A stretch of DNA of 14,816 nucleotides, taken from a virus. Lineage: Duplodnaviria; Heunggongvirae; Uroviricota; Caudoviricetes. The position numbers and the translations under genes are program-made. This document shows positions 1,315 to 6,774 of the stretch, piece by piece. The notes under the pieces were generated by a model. The model was not told where the DNA came from, did no database searches, and saw only the letters and a program-made list of their open reading frames with translations. Position 1 is the stretch's first letter. The number at the start of each line of letters is the position of its first letter. The DNA is taken from IMG/VR virus record IMGVR_UViG_2548876941_000006. One strand, 5' to 3'.

Positions 1315-1655
1315 CAGTGAGTGACCTCTTCAAAGGTACAGTTAAAATCGGTATACATGGCATTATCCGAAATACTCCACTCCCTGCAGACAACCCGGAC
1401 GGTTTTGTTGTGTTTTGGCGGACGCCACAAAAAAGCACGTATCCCGGCATGACGGGATAAAAAACTGTCCAGCGCAGCACGGGAATATTCATCTGTGACA
1501 CGAAACACCGGTTTAAACGTTTTCAGATCCGCATTCAGACCACCAGCCCGTCGCTGTTCATATCCGTCACCGAACTTTACCGTAATAACAGATGGCTTTC
1601 GTGTCGTCTCCATCCCCTCGCGGGGGATCCAGTTAAAAACTTCAGGCTCAGGCAC
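1314..1655 (-). CDS. M: Minor tail protein M
   Basis: The frame contains KFGDGYEQR, GLNADLKT and FLWRPP, which match lambda gpM. Similarity extends upstream of the first internal ATG (FNWIPREGME versus lambda FRWKVKPGMD), so I place the start at GTG 1653-1655, preceded by GGAGGA with a 7-nt spacer. This overlaps the tape measure stop by 8 nt. The ORF-track start at 1700 is a TTG; ATG 1613 is an alternative. Confidence 0.8.
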   Translation of the reverse strand: MPEPEVFNWIPREGMETTRKPSVITVKFGDGYEQRRAGGLNADLKTFKPVFRVTDEYSRAALDSFLSRHAGIRAFLWRPPKHNKTVRVVCREWSISDNAMYTDFNCTFEEVTH

Positions 1656-4600
1656 TGTATAATCCTCCGTCCCGACGTGATGACTGCATAATTGACACAA
1701 CCCTGCTGTCGATCAGATCCACCAGCCCCCTGGCTGACTGCGTATCTGTCTCGCCATTGCTCCCTTTATTCTGAATACTGATGTGATACACGGGAGAATA
1801 GACAAATCCGCCGCCACCATTCACATTGCCAATGGCTCTGACCCCAAGAGAGCCGTCCGCTGCCCGCGTCAGTGGCATGATAGCTTCAGGCCCGGCCTCG
1901 CCCATCAGTCCGGCACCTTTCGCAAAAGCAAAATACGTCGGCGTATCCACAATAGTGTTACTGTAAGCACTCAGATTTGCCGATGTGTAAACACCACCTT
2001 TTGCGTTTGCCACTGCCCCCGAAATCCATCCTCCTACCGTACCAAGCCACCCTCCGGCGCCGGAGAGTGATTTCAGTCCGTTAACAATGGCCGCATTCAT
2101 CAGAATTTTTGAAACTTCCTGGAGAACTGAACTTCCCCAGTTCCTCCAGTCCACAACATTCCCGGCCAGTGCATCGGAAATATTTGATACCAGCCCGTCC
2201 ATGGTGGAAACGACAGCATCTGCCGCCAGTGAAGCATAATCGGTGGCGCTGTCTGCCCAGTTGATCAGTCCCTCCTGGAGTCCGGCATTCCAGTTATTAC
2301 GTAAAGCATCGGCCTTTGCATAATAATCCTGCTGATCGCTGAGACGCTCTTCCAGATATTTTTTATTCAGTTCTTTCTCCTGTTTCCACAGGGCTTCTTC
2401 AATTTCTCCGGTCTGATACTGTCTCAGGAGTTCGTTATTTTTCTGCTCAAATGCCTGCCGGATACTCCACATTTCCTGAAGTCGTTCACGCATCCGTGAG
2501 CCTTCACCATATCCCAGCAACTGCGCGTTGTTAGATGCCCTGGCACTGGCATTACTGTCCGCCAGGCTGCTTTCATACGCGGCAAGCTGCTCACGAATCT
2601 TTTTCTGGTCGATGAGTGCCGCATTCTGTAAAAGCATTTTTTTTTGCGCTTCTGACAGTGTTGATAATTCGCCCTGACTGACCTGATATTTCATCTTAGC
2701 CAGTTCAGTATTTTGCCCTGCCAGTGCTATTTGTTCTTTTTGCTGTTTAATCAGCCGTTTATAAATATCTTCTGTTTTTTCCGCTTCGGTCTTTTTATGT
2801 GTTTTGGGTTTATTTGCCTGGTTATTTCGCCATGCATCCAGTGAGTTATTGATATAATTCTGTCTGGCTGTCTGATACGCCTCCCCCACAAAACCAAGAT
2901 CATCCGCAACATAGCCCAGTCGGGCACGCTCACGCGCTTCCCCCTTCAGACGGGACAGAGCCAGTTCGCGCTTGCTGTTATTCAGTGCAGTCTGCTGCTT
3001 ATCATCCAGGGTGGCCTGTGGCAGCCGTAATGGTGCATTCACCAGCCCCTGTCGCTGCTGAAGTAATTCATTACCAAGTCCGAGAAGGCGATTAAACTCG
3101 GTATGCTGCCCGTTCATGATCAACAGGGACTGATACGCTTTGTTTTGTTCCGCCGCCTGTTGACGGATCAACGCCACCCGTCGCTCCTCCAGCCCGGCAA
3201 GCACATCCTGAATGGATTGCGCTTTACCCTGCATTTGAGTTAGGCGAGACTGTTCAACTGCCAGTTGATTTGTTGCTTCTGCAAGCCCTTCTGTGACAGT
3301 TTTTACCGACGTCATATGGTTAATCATAAAACCGTTATCGGTTGTCCAGCCCGGGTTTGCCAGCACATACTGATAGCCGGCAATTTTTTCCTGTAAGGAT
3401 TTGATCTTACTTTTCTGCTCGTCAATTAACCTGTTCTGCTCCTTCAGTGCCTGCCGCGTCTTTTCTTCATTATCTGACGTTTCAGGAAGCGACATTGCCG
3501 ACGTTTTCTGGCGAATTTCGTCGATTGTTGCGGCATACTGGCGTGCAGATTCTCTGGCCTGCTCCTGATTCTGATACATTGTGTACCAGGCCGTCGCCCC
3601 CAGCATGACGAGTCCCGGCACACCACCAACCAACCCCAGCGCACCACTTAACAGACGGCTCCCCACTGACGTAACATTATTCAGCGTTGTCTGTGCCGCT
3701 GTTCTGGCCGCAATATTACGGGTAAGCGACGCCTGGGCAACTGTCAGCTTCGCTTCTGCTGCTGCCTGCCTTTCGGTACCGCGAGCAGCAACAACCGCCT
3801 GTTGCGCACGATAAACCGCCGCACGCGCCCTGGCGGTTGCTATCTGTGTCCCCCGGAGTTGCGCTTCCGCAAGAGCTACTTCGTTTCTGGCTGCAGTAAT
3901 TAATCCGGCAGTTGCAGATCCAGCAGAAGCCGCCATATTGCCAAAATATCGGGCTACCCCGACAGCAACCAGAGCACCGGCAGCGGTTGCCACGGTGTCA
4001 ATATTGCCTGCAATACCATTCAGCACACCGGAGAGCGTCTTCGTCACTCCGCTTGCCTCGTTCGCACCACCAACCCAGGCCATAAAGGCGTTTTCAACTT
4101 TGGTTGCAGAGGATGAAACCGTATCAGGCATTGCCGCATATTCATCACGTAATGCCCCAAGCTGACTAATCAGTGCAGGAACAACCTTATCGGCAGTTAA
4201 CTTTCCGTTATCCGCCATGGCCTTCAGATCCTTACGGGCAACTCCCATTCCCGCAGCCAGCGCACGAATAACACGATCGCCGTTCTCATTCACCGAGTTA
4301 AACTCTTCACCGCGCAGCACCCCCTGCGCCAGAGCCTGACTGAACTGCGTGATCACCGAACTGGCTTCTGCTGTACTGGCACCGGATAATTTCAGGCCAG
4401 TAGAGATCGCCTCGGTGACTTTCAGTACCTCCTCAGAACTGTAACCATACTCCCGCATGGAAGCTGCAGAACGGGCAAAAAGGCTGGCGTTATCAGAAAA
4501 CGCCGTCCCCGTTCTCTGGCTGATCGCCATTAATTCACGCTGTGATGCCTGAAAATCATCACTGGACTGTGAGGCCTGCTTCAGACGGGCATTTACTGAA

Positions 4601-4881
4601 TTCCACTCATCGGCGAGAGAAATAAGATGACCGGTAGCAAAAGCCCCGGCAAATGCCCCAGCCATATTCAGTGCCGAAGATTTAGCTGTATTTATCTGAT
4701 CCGTCACTTCTGCCAGTGCACGCCGCATTTCACGGGATGCAGCAGCAGACTGTCGGCCTCCGTTCTGCATGGTGCGGTAGTAATCCTGCCCCATACGCGA
4801 AGCCCGGGAGATCTCTGACTGGAATGACCGGGAGTTTGCCGAGATTTTAATAATCAGTTCACGTAATGTCGCCACACTCAT
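1648..4881 (-). CDS. Tail tape measure protein (lambda gpH-like C-terminal region)
   Basis: 1077-aa ORF located between the GT chaperone genes and M/L/K. It is Ala/Gln/Glu/Leu-rich with long heptad-like stretches typical of tape measure proteins and has a central hydrophobic segment (LLSGALGLVGGVPGLVMLGATAWY). The C-terminal region (WRNNWNAGLQEGLINWADSATD ... RRDGGLYSA) resembles the lambda gpH C-terminus as recalled. GGAGA lies immediately 5' of the ATG, so the exact start is slightly uncertain. Confidence 0.9.
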   Translation of the reverse strand: MSVATLRELIIKISANSRSFQSEISRASRMGQDYYRTMQNGGRQSAAASREMRRALAEVTDQINTAKSSALNMAGAFAGAFATGHLISLADEWNSVNARLKQASQSSDDFQASQRELMAISQRTGTAFSDNASLFARSAASMREYGYSSEEVLKVTEAISTGLKLSGASTAEASSVITQFSQALAQGVLRGEEFNSVNENGDRVIRALAAGMGVARKDLKAMADNGKLTADKVVPALISQLGALRDEYAAMPDTVSSSATKVENAFMAWVGGANEASGVTKTLSGVLNGIAGNIDTVATAAGALVAVGVARYFGNMAASAGSATAGLITAARNEVALAEAQLRGTQIATARARAAVYRAQQAVVAARGTERQAAAEAKLTVAQASLTRNIAARTAAQTTLNNVTSVGSRLLSGALGLVGGVPGLVMLGATAWYTMYQNQEQARESARQYAATIDEIRQKTSAMSLPETSDNEEKTRQALKEQNRLIDEQKSKIKSLQEKIAGYQYVLANPGWTTDNGFMINHMTSVKTVTEGLAEATNQLAVEQSRLTQMQGKAQSIQDVLAGLEERRVALIRQQAAEQNKAYQSLLIMNGQHTEFNRLLGLGNELLQQRQGLVNAPLRLPQATLDDKQQTALNNSKRELALSRLKGEARERARLGYVADDLGFVGEAYQTARQNYINNSLDAWRNNQANKPKTHKKTEAEKTEDIYKRLIKQQKEQIALAGQNTELAKMKYQVSQGELSTLSEAQKKMLLQNAALIDQKKIREQLAAYESSLADSNASARASNNAQLLGYGEGSRMRERLQEMWSIRQAFEQKNNELLRQYQTGEIEEALWKQEKELNKKYLEERLSDQQDYYAKADALRNNWNAGLQEGLINWADSATDYASLAADAVVSTMDGLVSNISDALAGNVVDWRNWGSSVLQEVSKILMNAAIVNGLKSLSGAGGWLGTVGGWISGAVANAKGGVYTSANLSAYSNTIVDTPTYFAFAKGAGLMGEAGPEAIMPLTRAADGSLGVRAIGNVNGGGGFVYSPVYHISIQNKGSNGETDTQSARGLVDLIDSRVVSIMQSSRRDGGLYSA

Positions 4882-4891
4882 TCTCCGGACG

Positions 4892-4916
4892 AAAAAAAAC
4901 CGCCGAAGCGGTTTTT
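4892..4916 (-). terminator. Rho-independent terminator downstream of the moron gene (hairpin flanked by A-run and T-run, potentially bidirectional)
   Basis: Plus strand reads gAAAAAAAACCGCCGAAGCGGTTTTTg. On the minus strand this is a 6-bp stem AACCGC/GCGGTT with a 4-nt loop followed by T8. It sits between the moron stop (4924-4926) and the tape measure start (4881). Confidence 0.75.
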
Positions 4917-4923
4917 GTATTCT

Positions 4924-5265
4924 TTAAAGAAGTCCGGCCTTACGCCTTGCTTCCTGAAGATATTCATCATCCGTTTTTTGTGAAACGGAACTATCTGCAT
5001 TGCAAATTAAATCACTACCGCAATGCTTACATTTAATAGCCTCTTCTTTGATCAACTCCGCACAGTAAGGGCATTTCTTCATGCCATTGCTTACCATTTG
5101 TTGTTCATGTGCCTTCTCATCTCTTTGGATTACCAGCGAATGAACCAGAGCAACAATAAAGATCATCGCACCATATACCCACCATCCTAAAAATGAGCGA
5201 CCTTTGCTTTTCGCAATAATAGCTGGAATTAGTCCCAAAACTATTGAAATAAGTAAAAATTCCAT
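4924..5265 (-). CDS. Moron: small inner-membrane protein with two predicted TM helices and a C-terminal CxxC-x10-CxxC zinc ribbon; function unknown
   Basis: 113-aa ORF from ATG 5263-5265 (the ORF-track start at 5268 is a TTG). An AAGGAA ribosome-binding site lies about 7 nt upstream. Protein: [47 protein letters not shown] ... [24 protein letters not shown]. The gene is visibly AT-rich (roughly 35-40% GC by eye) compared with the flanking tail genes and is followed by its own terminator. Confidence 0.75.
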
Positions 5266-5279
5266 CAATGTTTCCTTAC

Positions 5280-5315
5280 TTTCTCAATAAAATGGGAATA
5301 ATAATCCAGTCAAGT
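5280..5315 (-). promoter_or_regulatory. Possible sigma70-like promoter for the moron (-35-like TTGACT; weak -10 candidates)
   Basis: Minus strand reads cacTTGACTggattattattcccattttattgagaaagtaaggaaacattgATG. TTGACT (plus 5308-5313) is a 5/6 match to the -35 consensus, but no clean TATAAT lies at 17 bp (candidates tttatt/tattga). Weak call based only on motif reading. Confidence 0.2.
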
Positions 5316-5322
5316 GAAAAGA

Positions 5323-5996
5323 TCACCGAGCAGCAACAAATAATGCCTTCTCAATCTCAGCAAATGGATCTGAGGTGCCTTCTGTATGCTCCTTCTCCCA
5401 CTGAAGAAGCGCATCATTCAGTGGCACTTTGACCCCCTGCGCACCGTAAACAGCTGAAACAATCTGGGCAGCCCGGATATCAGCCCGTTCGTCCCCCAGC
5501 GGGCTGAACCTGTCAAATTCTGCCCACATCATGATTTCTGATGCTGACATTTCCCGGCGTAACTCTGACAATGTGCGCCCCATCCTGAGCGCCAGCATCA
5601 TCAGAAAACGCATCCCCGGAAGCGCTACTTTTTTTTAACCTCGCCGGCATCACTGATCAGTTCCAGAGACTGCCGAAGAAGCCGCGCATGCACCGGGCCA
5701 TACACGGCAATTACCTGTTCACGATCATCCTCTGAAAATACAGGTTGCAGTCCGGTATCACACAGAACATCGATGAACAGTTCAACATCCGCTTCCAGAT
5801 TTCGGCGGGCGCGCTCCGCAACGGATAACGGTGTCTCATCATCTTTTGCTTTAACGATCTCCTGCCAGCGCAACCAGGCTTCTGCAGAAGGTTCCCGTAA
5901 TACAACCGTTGCGCCCTCCCATTCAGGCACATCAACAGTTTTATGGCGAAACCCCGACATCGTTGCCAGTGCCAGATTACGGATATTTTTAGTCAT
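5323..5996 (-). CDS. Tail assembly chaperone GT fusion (gpG N-terminus plus gpT-like C-terminus) made by -1 frameshift near 5628-5634
   Basis: The -1 frame ORF 5323..5613 (MRFLMMLALRMGRTLSELRREM...) has no convincing independent ribosome-binding site and is open upstream to the slippery site (...KKK/VALPGMRFLMM...). Predicted fusion is about 224 aa (123 from G plus 101 from T frame). Position and architecture match the conserved siphovirus G/GT pair. Confidence 0.7.
5625..5996 (-). CDS. Tail assembly chaperone (lambda gpG-like), zero-frame product
   Basis: ORF between the major tail and tape measure genes ending EVKKK-stop. I place the start at ATG 5994-5996 (MTKNIRN), 8 nt downstream of a GAGGA, rather than the ORF-track start at 6011. 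Its 3' end carries an A-run slippery site and is followed by an overlapping -1 frame ORF, the conserved G/GT arrangement. Confidence 0.8.
   Translation of the reverse strand: MTKNIRNLALATMSGFRHKTVDVPEWEGATVVLREPSAEAWLRWQEIVKAKDDETPLSVAERARRNLEADVELFIDVLCDTGLQPVFSEDDREQVIAVYGPVHARLLRQSLELISDAGEVKKK
5628..5634 (-). other. Programmed -1 ribosomal frameshift slippery heptamer A AAA AAG (G to GT)
   Basis: Minus strand reads GTT AAA AAA AAG TAG in the G frame. A -1 slip on A_AAA_AAG continues as GTA GCG CTT CCG GGG ATG CGT TTT (VALPGMRF...), which is the frame of ORF 5323..5613. Confidence 0.75.
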
Positions 5997-6010
5997 CACA
6001 TCTATCCTCA

Positions 6011-6715
6011 TTAACTGACGGTAACAGTGCAGGAAGTGGAGGTCACTTTGTTAACCGGGCTTGCTGAATCAGAAATCTCGCAGGTATACGCACCAGCATC
6101 ACCGGATGCTGCTGATGCCTTACTGAACGTTGCCGCCGTCTGTCCGGAAACAGGAGAACCACCTTTTTTCCAGGCATAAGAATAAGGCGGCACACCACCG
6201 GCAGCCTCAACCATCATTTCGAGTTTCGCTCCGGCAGAAACCTGCAACGTGCTGTTTAAATCGACCTTCACTTTCAGCGGCTCTGTCGTCAGCACAGGTT
6301 TACCTTTCAGGCGCAGGGAAAACGTTGCAGCCACAACACCATTGGTTCCTGCAGACCAGGTATGCTGACGCACCTCTGCCATAAAGGTAAATCCGTTGCC
6401 TGACGGAAAAATAACTTTAAAGCCATACGTGGTGTCATTGTCATAGGCACTGCGCAACGCGTTCTGGGCAGCATTGAGGTAAAAGTTGCCTGACATGGAA
6501 ATCTCTGACGCGGCACCAAGACCGTTAATATTTTCCTGCTCAACAGAACACAGCGTGGTGACATCAATATCCTGCTTTTGTCCTGCGGTAAACTGCACCT
6601 CTTTGATTGTACAGCTCAGGCCAAGATAGCTGGCAGAATCCAGGGTTTCTGCTGTTACCGGTGCAGACGAAATCATAATTTTCGTCAGTTGCGAACGCTC
6701 AAAATTAGAGGACAT
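6011..6715 (-). CDS. Major tail (tube) protein with C-terminal Ig-like domain
   Basis: Start ATG 6713-6715 (MSSNFERSQ) is preceded by AGGAG with a 6-nt spacer; the upstream extension to 6766 would run through a terminator hairpin and is rejected. Position is immediately upstream of G/GT. The C-terminal roughly 85 aa (...VSAGAKLEMMVEAAGGVPPYSYAWKKGGSPVSGQTAATFSKASAASGDAGAYTCEISDSASPVNKVTSTSCTVTVS) look like a bacterial Ig-like fold. Confidence 0.85.
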   Translation of the reverse strand: MSSNFERSQLTKIMISSAPVTAETLDSASYLGLSCTIKEVQFTAGQKQDIDVTTLCSVEQENINGLGAASEISMSGNFYLNAAQNALRSAYDNDTTYGFKVIFPSGNGFTFMAEVRQHTWSAGTNGVVAATFSLRLKGKPVLTTEPLKVKVDLNSTLQVSAGAKLEMMVEAAGGVPPYSYAWKKGGSPVSGQTAATFSKASAASGDAGAYTCEISDSASPVNKVTSTSCTVTVS

Positions 6716-6729
6716 ACTCGTCTCCTGAA

Positions 6730-6754
6730 AATAAAAAACCCGCCAGCGGCGGGT
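6730..6754 (-). terminator. Intrinsic terminator-like hairpin plus T-run between the tail completion gene and the major tail gene
   Basis: Plus strand reads tAAAAAACCCGCCAGCGGCGGGtggg. On the minus strand this is stem CCCGCC/GGCGGG with a 3-nt loop followed by TTTTTTATTTT, then the AGGAG site of the major tail gene. Confidence 0.65.
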
Positions 6755-6774
6755 GGGTAAAATCATTAACGACC

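What the first reader, a model, noticed from the sequence alone, without database searches (positions are those of the whole stretch)
5613..5640. Programmed -1 frameshift site (A AAA AAG) producing the G/GT tail assembly chaperone pair
The G-like ORF ends ...GTT AAA AAA AAG TAG, a run of eight A followed by G that forms the canonical X_XXY_YYZ slippery heptamer. The -1 frame continues directly into the T-like ORF (VALPGMRFLMM...), which has no convincing ribosome-binding site of its own. This is the conserved siphovirus G/GT recoding event, here supported by direct reading of both frames. No obvious downstream stimulatory stem-loop was noticed, which is common for this site type when the stop codon follows immediately.
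Basis: partly seen in the sequence, partly recalled or inferred. Interest (0 to 1): 0.5.

Follow-up and report, generated by a model that had tools for sequence, protein, structure and literature searches.

The report
Phage tail chaperone G/GT frameshift site
This is the well-known "slippery" spot in an E. coli prophage tail-assembly gene, where a few percent of ribosomes slip back one base and make a longer fusion protein; it is real but ordinary, and the only gap is that databases do not annotate it.

Summary
The G-like gene (5625..5996) ends GTT AAA AAA AAG TAG. The heptamer A_AAA_AAG is 5628..5634 and the stop is 5625..5627. The -1 frame opens only 7 nt before that stop, just after a TAA at 5635..5637, and runs into a T-like ORF ending at 5323.

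- G matches Pfam Phage_TAC_1 (3e-58) and T matches Phage_tail_T (5e-20). The pair sits between the major tail gene and the tape measure gene of an HK97-like E. coli prophage.
- The conceptual 224-aa fusion aligns without gaps to HK97 gp14, the annotated -1 frameshift product (63% identity).
- In 84 diverse relatives, 81 keep T in the -1 frame. Of those, 80 have an in-phase A_AAG lysine shift site at the same alignment column.
- No conserved start signal for T and no conserved downstream RNA structure were found.

Published reporter assays (Antonov 2013) measured 7% frameshifting on an orthologous prophage cassette that also has the A_AAA_AAG_TAG site. Sharma 2014 lists this cluster as a true case.

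So this is an already known recoding event in a common prophage. Only the database annotation is missing: T is annotated as a separate 92-aa CDS. Interest is low.

The parts
5625..5996 (-). G-type tail assembly chaperone gene (123 aa plus TAG stop). A longer ORF reaches an ATG at 6011 that overlaps the major tail gene stop.
   Evidence: Pfam PF06222 Phage_TAC_1, E 2.8e-58, covering residues 6-128 of the 128-aa ORF. GAGGA lies 8 nt before ATG 5996, with an anti-SD duplex of -6.1 kcal/mol. RefSeq and GenBank relatives start here.
5628..5634 (-). Slippery heptamer A_AAA_AAG, part of an A8 run (5629..5636) that ends in G.
   Evidence: Read directly; coordinates. A8 is invariant in 82/82 near-identical loci. 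The aligned site in 81 relatives is A_AAA_AAG 48, G_GAA_AAG 11, G_GGA_AAG 7 and N_NNA_AAG 14, plus 1 scored AAA.
5625..5627 (-). G-frame stop codon TAG directly 3' of the heptamer.
   Evidence: A stop directly follows the heptamer in 48 of 81 relatives. It does so in 14/14 unique relatives whose P-site codon cannot re-pair well.
5635..5637 (-). TAA stop in the -1 frame immediately 5' of the heptamer. It restricts any productive shift to the heptamer.
   Evidence: overlap of the two open frames is 7 nt.
5323..5628 (-). T segment read in the -1 frame after the slip: 101 aa, VALPGMRFLMM...FVAAR, then a TGA stop.
   Evidence: Pfam PF06223 Phage_tail_T, E 5.3e-20. [quoted passage not shown]
5323..5996 (-). 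Conceptual GT fusion (224 aa), made by re-reading base 5628.
   Evidence: 63% identity over 224/224 residues without gaps to the HK97 gp14 fusion, E 1e-108. phrog_14766 (224 positions) is matched over residues 1-222, E 1.1e-90.
5563..5606 (-). Predicted local RNA hairpin: an 11-bp outer helix plus a GCGCUC/GGGCGC inner helix, starting 21 nt after the heptamer. Probably not a stimulator.
   Evidence: MFE -33.4 kcal/mol, z -1.89, 8/200 shuffles as good. Not conserved: RNAalifold gives 0 pairs on 70 junctions; 60.3% of cells paired against 59.1% when shuffled, and covariation no better than slid controls.
5599..5613 (-). In-frame ATG codons of the T frame (5611..5613, 5599..5601). RefSeq annotation on relatives starts T at the position corresponding to 5601.
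   Evidence: Anti-SD duplex is -1.0 kcal/mol for ATG 5613 and -5.7 for ATG 5601, but the GGGGA lies 11 nt away. The family median is -1.7, against about -6 for most real starts in the window.
6011..6766 (-). Major tail (tube) protein gene with a C-terminal Ig-like domain. This is the upstream neighbour.
   Evidence: Pfam Ig_2/Ig_3 hits and weak Phage_TTP_11/Phage_tail_2 hits. RefSeq names on relatives.
1648..4881 (-). Tape measure protein gene, the downstream neighbour.
   Evidence: Pfam Phage_HK97_TLTM E 3.7e-94, TMP_3, Tape_meas_lam_C.

Best explanation
The site is the programmed -1 ribosomal frameshift that makes the GT fusion of an HK97-type tail assembly chaperone pair in a temperate E. 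coli siphovirus (prophage).

Most ribosomes translate G (123 aa) and terminate at TAG. A minority, probably a few percent, slip back one nucleotide on A_AAA_AAG. E. coli has a single tRNA-Lys (anticodon mnm5s2UUU) that pairs weakly with AAG and re-pairs better with AAA. After the slip the ribosome reads GUA GCG CUU ... and adds the 101-aa T domain, giving a 224-aa GT protein.

By analogy with lambda, many G subunits and a few GT subunits coat the tape measure protein, and the T domain recruits the major tail protein. The fixed low G:GT ratio is therefore set by the slip frequency.

Shown here:
- the sequence anatomy;
- family membership;
- synteny;
- conservation of the frame relation and of the phased A_AAG site;
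- lack of a conserved T start signal.

Inferred, not shown: the fusion is actually made from this allele, at what frequency, and the chaperone roles of G and GT.

Unresolved: whether both tRNAs slip together on the heptamer, or only the P-site tRNA-Lys slips while the stop codon waits in the A site. Both routes give the same protein.
For: - Anatomy.
- Pfam Phage_TAC_1 (2.8e-58) and Phage_tail_T (5.3e-20), with tape measure and tail tube genes flanking.
- HK97, HK106 and KS9 records annotate the homologous pair as a joined CDS; HK97's note reads 'translated due to a -1 frameshift'.
- The fusion aligns gaplessly to the HK97 gp14 fusion, 63% identity, and phrog_14766 is matched end to end.
- In 84 diverse loci, 81 have T in -1. 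80 of those 81 have an in-phase AAG preceded by A at the aligned column, although AAA is the commoner E. coli lysine codon. The base 3' of the heptamer is T in 66, C in 14, A in 1 and G in 0.
- A8 is invariant in 82/82 close copies.
- Variability is 3-periodic in the -1 frame straight after the slip.
- No conserved SD precedes T-frame starts.
[quoted passage not shown] A G_GGA_AAG relative gave 6% (PMC3711429).
- Cluster A_AAA_AAG_25, 'tail assembly chaperone [true]' (PMC4066793).
- Lambda G:GT is 30:1 and that ratio is needed for tail assembly (PMC5009743).
Against: - No product was observed for this allele.
- Unstimulated V_VVA_AAG heptamers gave only about 0.3% in one reporter context, rising to 3.7% with the best 3' context (PMC4066793). 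The efficiency here is therefore uncertain, and no conserved stimulator was found.
- The A8 run could also allow some RNA polymerase slippage, which would give the same protein.
- In this allele a GGGGA lies 11 nt before ATG 5601, so some independent T initiation cannot be excluded.
Confidence: 0.9

Rival explanations
1. Transcriptional slippage. RNA polymerase stutters on the A8/T8 run and adds one A to a fraction of the mRNAs. Ordinary translation of those mRNAs gives the same ...VKKKVALPG... fusion, with no ribosomal slip needed.
For: The run is 8 A long. Poly-A/T runs are slippery for RNA polymerase (PMC3711429; PMC5009743). A +1 A insertion gives an identical protein (from the sequence).
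Against: - Documented bacterial cases use runs of about 9 or more (PMC3711429 cites An, n>7).
- Among unique A_AAA_AAG relatives the run is 6 A in 5, 7 A in 31, 8 A in 6 and 9 A in 1.
- 32 relatives have no homopolymer at all (G_GGA_AAG, G_GAA_AAG, GCA_AAG and similar) yet keep the phased A_AAG.
- The run always ends in G at codon position 3. That phase constraint matters only to ribosomes.
- The tested orthologous cassette has only 6 A before the G and still gave 7%.
Slippage may contribute a little here, but it is not the selected mechanism.
Confidence: 0.06
2. T is an independent gene, as current RefSeq and GenBank annotation has it. It is translated from its own start (ATG 5601 or 5613), perhaps coupled to G termination, and no fusion is made.
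For: Annotation lists a separate 92-aa 'phage tail assembly protein T'. In this allele GGGGA lies upstream of ATG 5601 with a -5.7 kcal/mol anti-SD duplex. The G stop is only 11-23 nt upstream, so re-initiation is conceivable.
Against: - The SD spacing is 11 nt, which is long.
- The family median SD energy for T-frame starts is -1.7 kcal/mol, against about -6 for most real starts.
- Many relatives, HK97 included, have no start codon between the slip site and the conserved FLM motif. The residues before that Met (V-x-x-P-G-x-x-F-L) are nevertheless conserved, with third-position variability in the -1 frame.
- In all 81 relatives that keep T in the -1 frame, that frame stays open back to the shift site. 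In 31 of them it is closed within about 9 nt upstream of the heptamer (total overlap of 16 nt or less).
- Fusion-length proteins form their own PHROG family.
Confidence: 0.04
3. Artefact or decay. A homopolymer sequencing error or a frameshift mutation split a single GT gene.
For: Homopolymers are error-prone. Three of 84 relatives (L107, L121, L150) do show broken frame relations.
Against: Exactly A8 is found in 82/82 independent close copies. The two-frame layout is found in 81/84 diverged relatives and in inducible phages. A TAA closes the -1 frame just upstream, so no single in-frame GT ORF would exist with A9 further upstream.
Confidence: 0.01

Closest known systems
HK97 gp13/gp14 (tail assembly chaperone and its -1 frameshift product; Pfam PF06222 + PF06223)
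   Same: Same two Pfam families. Same position between the major tail and tape measure genes. The fusion is 224 aa, 63% identical without gaps. The slip is at the same residue (Lys123 then Val124). Even the moron plus terminator between T and the tape measure gene is mirrored.
   Different: HK97 uses G_GAA_AAG with the G stop 15 nt further on and a 49-nt overlap. Here the site is A_AAA_AAG with the stop adjacent and a 7-nt overlap.
E. coli O157 / Stx-phage prophage tail assembly chaperone cluster (ECs1801; Sharma 2014 cluster A_AAA_AAG_25; Antonov 2013 Phage_TAC cassette)
   Same: Same A_AAA_AAG_TAG site at the same column. The proteins are 63-66% identical. This cassette was measured at 7% frameshifting in E. 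coli. Its predicted downstream hairpin is no more stable than background, which matches.
   Different: The codon before the heptamer differs (AGA here becomes GTT AAA, giving A8 instead of A6), as do the 3' flanking codons. This particular allele has not been tested.
Lambda G/GT
   Same: Same logic and gene position. The T domain matches the same Pfam family, Phage_tail_T. A low-level -1 shift on an X_XXA_AAG heptamer near the end of G sets the G:GT ratio (PMC5009743).
   Different: Lambda uses G_GGA_AAG (7 relatives in this family do too), and its G belongs to a different chaperone family. No lambda sequence was compared here.
E. coli dnaX -1 frameshift
   Same: Identical heptamer A_AAA_AAG, decoded by the same single tRNA-Lys (PMC5009743).
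   Different: dnaX reaches about 50% using a Shine-Dalgarno-like element about 10 nt upstream and a stem-loop about 6 nt downstream. Here the only SD-like GAGG is 4 nt upstream, and the only hairpin is 21 nt downstream and not conserved. In dnaX the shifted product is the shorter one; here it is the longer.

Membership tests
Conserved tailed-phage G/GT tail assembly chaperone frameshift (lambda G/T paradigm, Xu-Hendrix-Duda 2004) | Two overlapping ORFs located between the major tail protein gene and the tape measure gene | tested here: met
   On the minus strand the order is major tail 6011..6766, G 5625..5996, T 5323..5628 and tape measure 1648..4881, with one small moron inserted after T.
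Conserved tailed-phage G/GT tail assembly chaperone frameshift (lambda G/T paradigm, Xu-Hendrix-Duda 2004) | Downstream ORF in the -1 frame relative to the upstream ORF, with a slippery sequence inside the overlap | tested here: met
   T is in the -1 frame. The overlap is exactly the heptamer A_AAA_AAG.
Conserved tailed-phage G/GT tail assembly chaperone frameshift (lambda G/T paradigm, Xu-Hendrix-Duda 2004) | Frame relation and shift site conserved among diverged homologues | tested here: met
   81 of 84 loci have T in -1. A phased A_AAG is found at the aligned column in 80 of those 81.
Conserved tailed-phage G/GT tail assembly chaperone frameshift (lambda G/T paradigm, Xu-Hendrix-Duda 2004) | Downstream ORF lacks its own translation start signal | tested here: inconclusive
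   There is no conserved SD in the family (median -1.7 kcal/mol). This allele has GGGGA 11 nt before ATG 5601 (-5.7 kcal/mol, poor spacing).
Conserved tailed-phage G/GT tail assembly chaperone frameshift (lambda G/T paradigm, Xu-Hendrix-Duda 2004) | A fusion protein is produced at a low fixed ratio and is needed for tail assembly | not testable with these tools
   Only indirect evidence: 7% on an orthologous cassette with the same heptamer and stop (PMC3711429), and the lambda 30:1 ratio (PMC5009743).
Pfam Phage_TAC_1 (PF06222) and Phage_tail_T (PF06223); HK97 gp13/gp14 type | Score above the Pfam gathering threshold for both halves | tested here: met
   195.7 bits against a cut-off of 25, and 72.1 bits against a cut-off of 25.9.
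dnaX-type stimulated A_AAA_AAG frameshift | Shine-Dalgarno-like stimulator about 10 nt (6-17 nt) upstream of the heptamer | tested here: not met
   The only SD-like element (GAGG) ends 4 nt before the heptamer and is not conserved among relatives.
dnaX-type stimulated A_AAA_AAG frameshift | Stable, conserved stem-loop 5-9 nt downstream of the heptamer | tested here: not met
   The strong local helix starts 21 nt downstream. There is no consensus structure in 70 relatives and no excess pairing or covariation. No Rfam match.
Programmed transcriptional slippage (Thermus dnaX, IS elements, Shigella mxiE) | Homopolymer run long enough for RNA polymerase slippage (about 9 or more A/T) and independent of codon phase | tested here: not met
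   The run is 8 here and 6-7 in most relatives. 32 relatives have no run at all. The phase is always A_AAG.

The most novel reading that the evidence does not exclude
In this chaperone family the stop codon directly after AAG is part of the signal. The productive event would then be a P-site-only slip of tRNA-Lys from AAG to AAA while the ribosome waits on UAG/UAA (a 'shifty stop'), not a tandem two-tRNA slip. The G:GT ratio, and hence tail assembly, would then depend on release-factor kinetics (RF1 for the UAG here).

The hint is that every unique relative whose P-site codon cannot re-pair well (GCA, GTA, and GAA after A) has the stop immediately after AAG (14/14). Relatives with the lambda-type heptamer G_GGA_AAG all place it 3 nt further on (7/7), and G_GAA_AAG relatives place it 3 or 15 nt on.
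Probability: 0.3. Interest if true: 0.35.

Novelty: already known. Interest (0 to 1): 0.12.

Why it matters
It matters mainly for annotation. About 900 of 5,426 complete E. coli genomes carry this G/T pair. In the RefSeq and GenBank records examined, T is listed as a free-standing 92-aa protein starting at an internal ATG, and the 224-aa GT product is missing.

Correct annotation matters for proteomics searches, for phage engineering and for automated frameshift predictors.

Biologically the site adds nothing new. The G/GT frameshift is a textbook case, HK97 gp13/gp14 is its annotated relative, and an orthologous cassette with the same heptamer and stop has already been measured at 7%.

Tried and rejected
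- **Downstream stimulatory RNA.** The window folds into a long hairpin, and a window-versus-L102 comparison seemed to show two compensatory pairs. On 70 aligned junctions, though, RNAalifold found no consensus. The named structure paired 60.3% of cells against 59.1% when shuffled, with covariation no better than slid controls. L098 carries the window's 3' arm with the other 5' arm. I rejected it as a conserved stimulator. The inner GCGCUC/GGGCGC helix is explained by the conserved ALRxGR coding sequence.
- **Upstream SD stimulator.** GAGG lies only 4 nt upstream and is not conserved. Rejected.
- **Rfam.** An E-value scan of 5300..6000 found nothing.
- **Chance enrichment of AAAAAAG in the window.** Not significant, so the case rests on phase and conservation, not on motif counts.
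- **IMG/VR scan with the G protein.** It returned only 100%-identical copies. That was useful for the A8 invariance check only.
- **Ten-sequence alignment including Burkholderia phages.** It was too diverse for the locus search and was replaced by an 8-sequence alignment.
- **NCBIfam.** No model matches the fusion.
- **Antonov 2013 supplement.** A search for 'tail assembly' found nothing. The cassette was found by searching for the sequence instead.

Full report
**1. The observation**

The genes in this part of the window run on the minus strand. The reverse complement of 5613..5640 reads ...GGC GAG GTT AAA AAA AAG TAG CGC TTC CGG GGA TGC... in the frame of a 123-aa ORF (128 aa from an upstream ATG). 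In the -1 frame it reads GGT TAA AAA AAA GTA GCG CTT CCG GGG ATG CGT TTT CTG ATG ATG, that is *KKVALPGMRFLMM.

So there are eight A followed by G, phased as A_AAA_AAG (5628..5634), with the G-frame stop TAG (5625..5627) directly after it. A TAA in the -1 frame (5635..5637) sits directly before the heptamer. The two frames are therefore both open over only 7 nt, which is the heptamer itself.

The quoted sequence, the continuation VALPGMRFLMM and the 224-aa fusion size (123 + 101) are all correct. The finding omits only that the feature is on the minus strand.

The bare motif is not statistically unusual: 6 copies in the window against 2.9 +/- 1.8 expected. By my phasing from the ORF coordinates, the other two copies inside minus-strand genes are phased AAA_AAA_G.

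**2. What the genes are**

- The upstream ORF matches Pfam Phage_TAC_1 (PF06222, E 2.8e-58).
- The -1 frame ORF matches Phage_tail_T (PF06223, E 5.3e-20).
- The upstream neighbour is a tail tube protein with an Ig-like C-terminal domain.
- The downstream large gene is an HK97/lambda-type tape measure protein.

The whole window is the structural module (terminase to tail tip) of an HK97-like temperate siphovirus of E. coli. The G/T segment is found at 80% or more coverage in 897 of 5,426 complete E. coli genomes, in 11 deposited E. coli phage genomes and in many IMG/VR contigs.

In the RefSeq and GenBank records examined, G and T are two separate CDS. T starts at an internal ATG (92 aa) and no ribosomal slippage is annotated.

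**3. Comparison with relatives**

HK97 itself carries the same two families. Its record annotates gp13 plus a joined CDS 'translated due to a -1 frameshift'. HK106 and Burkholderia phage KS9 are annotated in the same way.

The conceptual fusion from the window aligns to the HK97 fusion over 224 of 224 residues without a gap. Identity is 63% (E 1e-108), and the frame change falls at the same residue. A PHROG family of fusion-length proteins (phrog_14766, 224 positions) is matched end to end (E 1.1e-90).

I collected 12 diverged phage loci and 72 loci from different bacterial species at 40-70% identity, 84 in all.
- T is in the -1 frame in 81 of them. The three exceptions look like decayed prophages.
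- At the aligned C-terminal column of G, the site in those 81 is A_AAA_AAG in 48, G_GAA_AAG (HK97 type) in 11, G_GGA_AAG (lambda type) in 7, and [A/G]_G[C/T/A]A_AAG in 14.
- One locus (KS9) was scored as AAA by my script.
- The A-site lysine codon is therefore AAG preceded by A in 80 of 81, although AAA is the commoner lysine codon in E. coli.
- The base 3' of the heptamer is T in 66, C in 14, A in 1 and G in 0.
- Among 82 near-identical copies the run is exactly A8 in all. That excludes a sequencing error or a DNA-level phase switch.

**4. Is T translated by shifting or on its own?**

Several observations favour shifting.
- The first codons after the slip point already show the coding signature of the -1 frame. 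Mean column entropy is 0.91/1.04/1.68 for codon positions 1/2/3, with a near-invariant Pro CCN three codons after the slip and Phe TTY before the conserved L-M.
- Many relatives, HK97 included, have no start codon in this stretch.
- The best anti-Shine-Dalgarno pairing upstream of any T-frame start has a family median of -1.7 kcal/mol. Most genuine starts in the window give about -6.
- In the window, ATG 5613 has none (-1.0). ATG 5601 has a GGGGA (-5.7), but it lies 11 nt away.

Independent initiation is therefore unlikely to be the main route, though a little cannot be excluded for this allele.

**5. Stimulators**

The window RNA folds into a long hairpin (MFE -33.4 kcal/mol, z -1.89). Its solid part (5563..5606) begins 21 nt after the heptamer. 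That is too far for a classical 5-9 nt spacer, as I understand the mechanism.

Across 70 aligned junctions RNAalifold finds no consensus structure. The named structure is paired in 60.3% of cells against 59.1% after shuffling, with covariation no better than slid controls. The inner helix coincides with the conserved ALRxGR coding sequence.

Rfam has no match. The only Shine-Dalgarno-like element upstream (GAGG) ends 4 nt before the heptamer, outside the 6-17 nt range searched by Sharma et al., and it is not conserved. This agrees with Sharma et al. 2014, where the predicted hairpin of the orthologous cluster was no more stable than background.

**6. Mechanism**

This is a -1 ribosomal frameshift on A_AAA_AAG. 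The heptamer is among the most shift-prone in E. coli because the single tRNA-Lys pairs weakly with AAG and better with AAA (PMC5009743; PMC4066793).

Without stimulators such heptamers gave about 0.3% in one reporter, and up to 3.7% with a favourable 3' context.

A direct measurement exists for an orthologue. [quoted passage not shown] It is identical over the compared stretch to the phage 2851 junction in L084 and comes from a protein 63-66% identical to this one. A G_GGA_AAG relative gave 6% (PMC3711429). Sharma et al. list the cluster (A_AAA_AAG_25, ECs1801, tail assembly chaperone) as a true case.

By analogy with lambda, the low fixed G:GT ratio (30:1 there) is what tail assembly needs. 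G and the G part of GT bind the tape measure protein, and T recruits the tail tube protein (PMC5009743). This functional step is inferred, not tested here.

**7. Rivals**

- RNA polymerase slippage on A8 would give the same protein, but several facts argue against it as the selected mechanism. Most relatives have runs of 6-7 A. Thirty-two have no run at all. The run always ends in G at codon position 3, which is a ribosome-specific phase constraint. The tested cassette has only six A before the G. A minor contribution in this A8 allele is possible.
- Independent T initiation and artefact or decay are dealt with in section 4 and section 3.

**8. A modest open point**

All 14 unique relatives whose P-site codon cannot re-pair well (GCA, GTA, or GAA after A) have the stop directly after AAG. 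All 7 with G_GGA_AAG have it one codon later.

This suggests that, in part of the family, the event is a single P-site tRNA-Lys slip while the stop codon waits in the A site. Here both routes are available and cannot be told apart from sequence.

**9. Verdict**

The event is already known: HK97 gp13/gp14, catalogued and experimentally measured E. coli prophage orthologues, and the lambda paradigm. Its only practical value is as an annotation correction. Interest is low.

Noticed in passing
window 4924..5265 (-), with the terminator hairpin at 4895..4916: A 113-aa moron-like gene sits between the T stop and the tape measure start. It has two N-terminal hydrophobic helices and a C-terminal zinc ribbon (PF13248; phrog_8436, function unknown). 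A textbook hairpin plus T-run terminator (AAAAACCGC-TTCG-GCGGTTTTTTTT) follows it, ending a few bases before the tape measure gene's Shine-Dalgarno sequence. HK97 has its moron gp15 plus a terminator at the same position. The gene is absent from phage PhiR49_2, and the DNA match to all 11 phage records stops before it. It could be a lysogen-expressed membrane protein (for example superinfection exclusion), but that is untested.
   Followed up: partly
window 5323..5601 (-) and related RefSeq/GenBank records (L001, L002): In the records examined, public annotation of this common prophage lists T as a separate 92-aa CDS starting at an internal ATG. It omits the 224-aa GT product. HK97, HK106 and KS9 records carry the joined CDS.
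   Followed up: yes
window 6163..6169 (-), inside the major tail gene 6011..6766: A second AAAAAAG lies on the coding strand within the Ig-like C-terminal domain region of the tail tube gene. It is phased AAA_AAA_G rather than A_AAA_AAG, so it is not a -1 heptamer. The Ig-like domain is in frame here, not added by a frameshift.
   Followed up: partly
L107, L121, L150 (genome contigs relatives): Three of the 72 species-level relatives have lost the -1 relation between G and T, through an in-frame fusion, a +1 relation or an early stop. One is in a Symbiopectobacterium symbiont genome. They are probably decaying prophages.
   Followed up: no
L087, L111, L112, L115, L126, L130, L131, L134, L135, L155, L157, L162 (Klebsiella, Raoultella, Pantoea, Erwinia and related relatives): These relatives have no tandem-slippery heptamer (GCA_AAG or GTA_AAG), only the A_AAG tetramer, and the stop codon always directly follows it. 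This hints at single-tRNA 'shifty stop' slippage in part of the family.
   Followed up: partly
window 5996..6013 (-): An upstream ATG at 6011 overlaps the major tail gene's TAA (TAATG) and would give a 128-aa G. The ATG at 5996, with GAGGA 8 nt upstream, is the start supported by Pfam and by homologues.
   Followed up: partly
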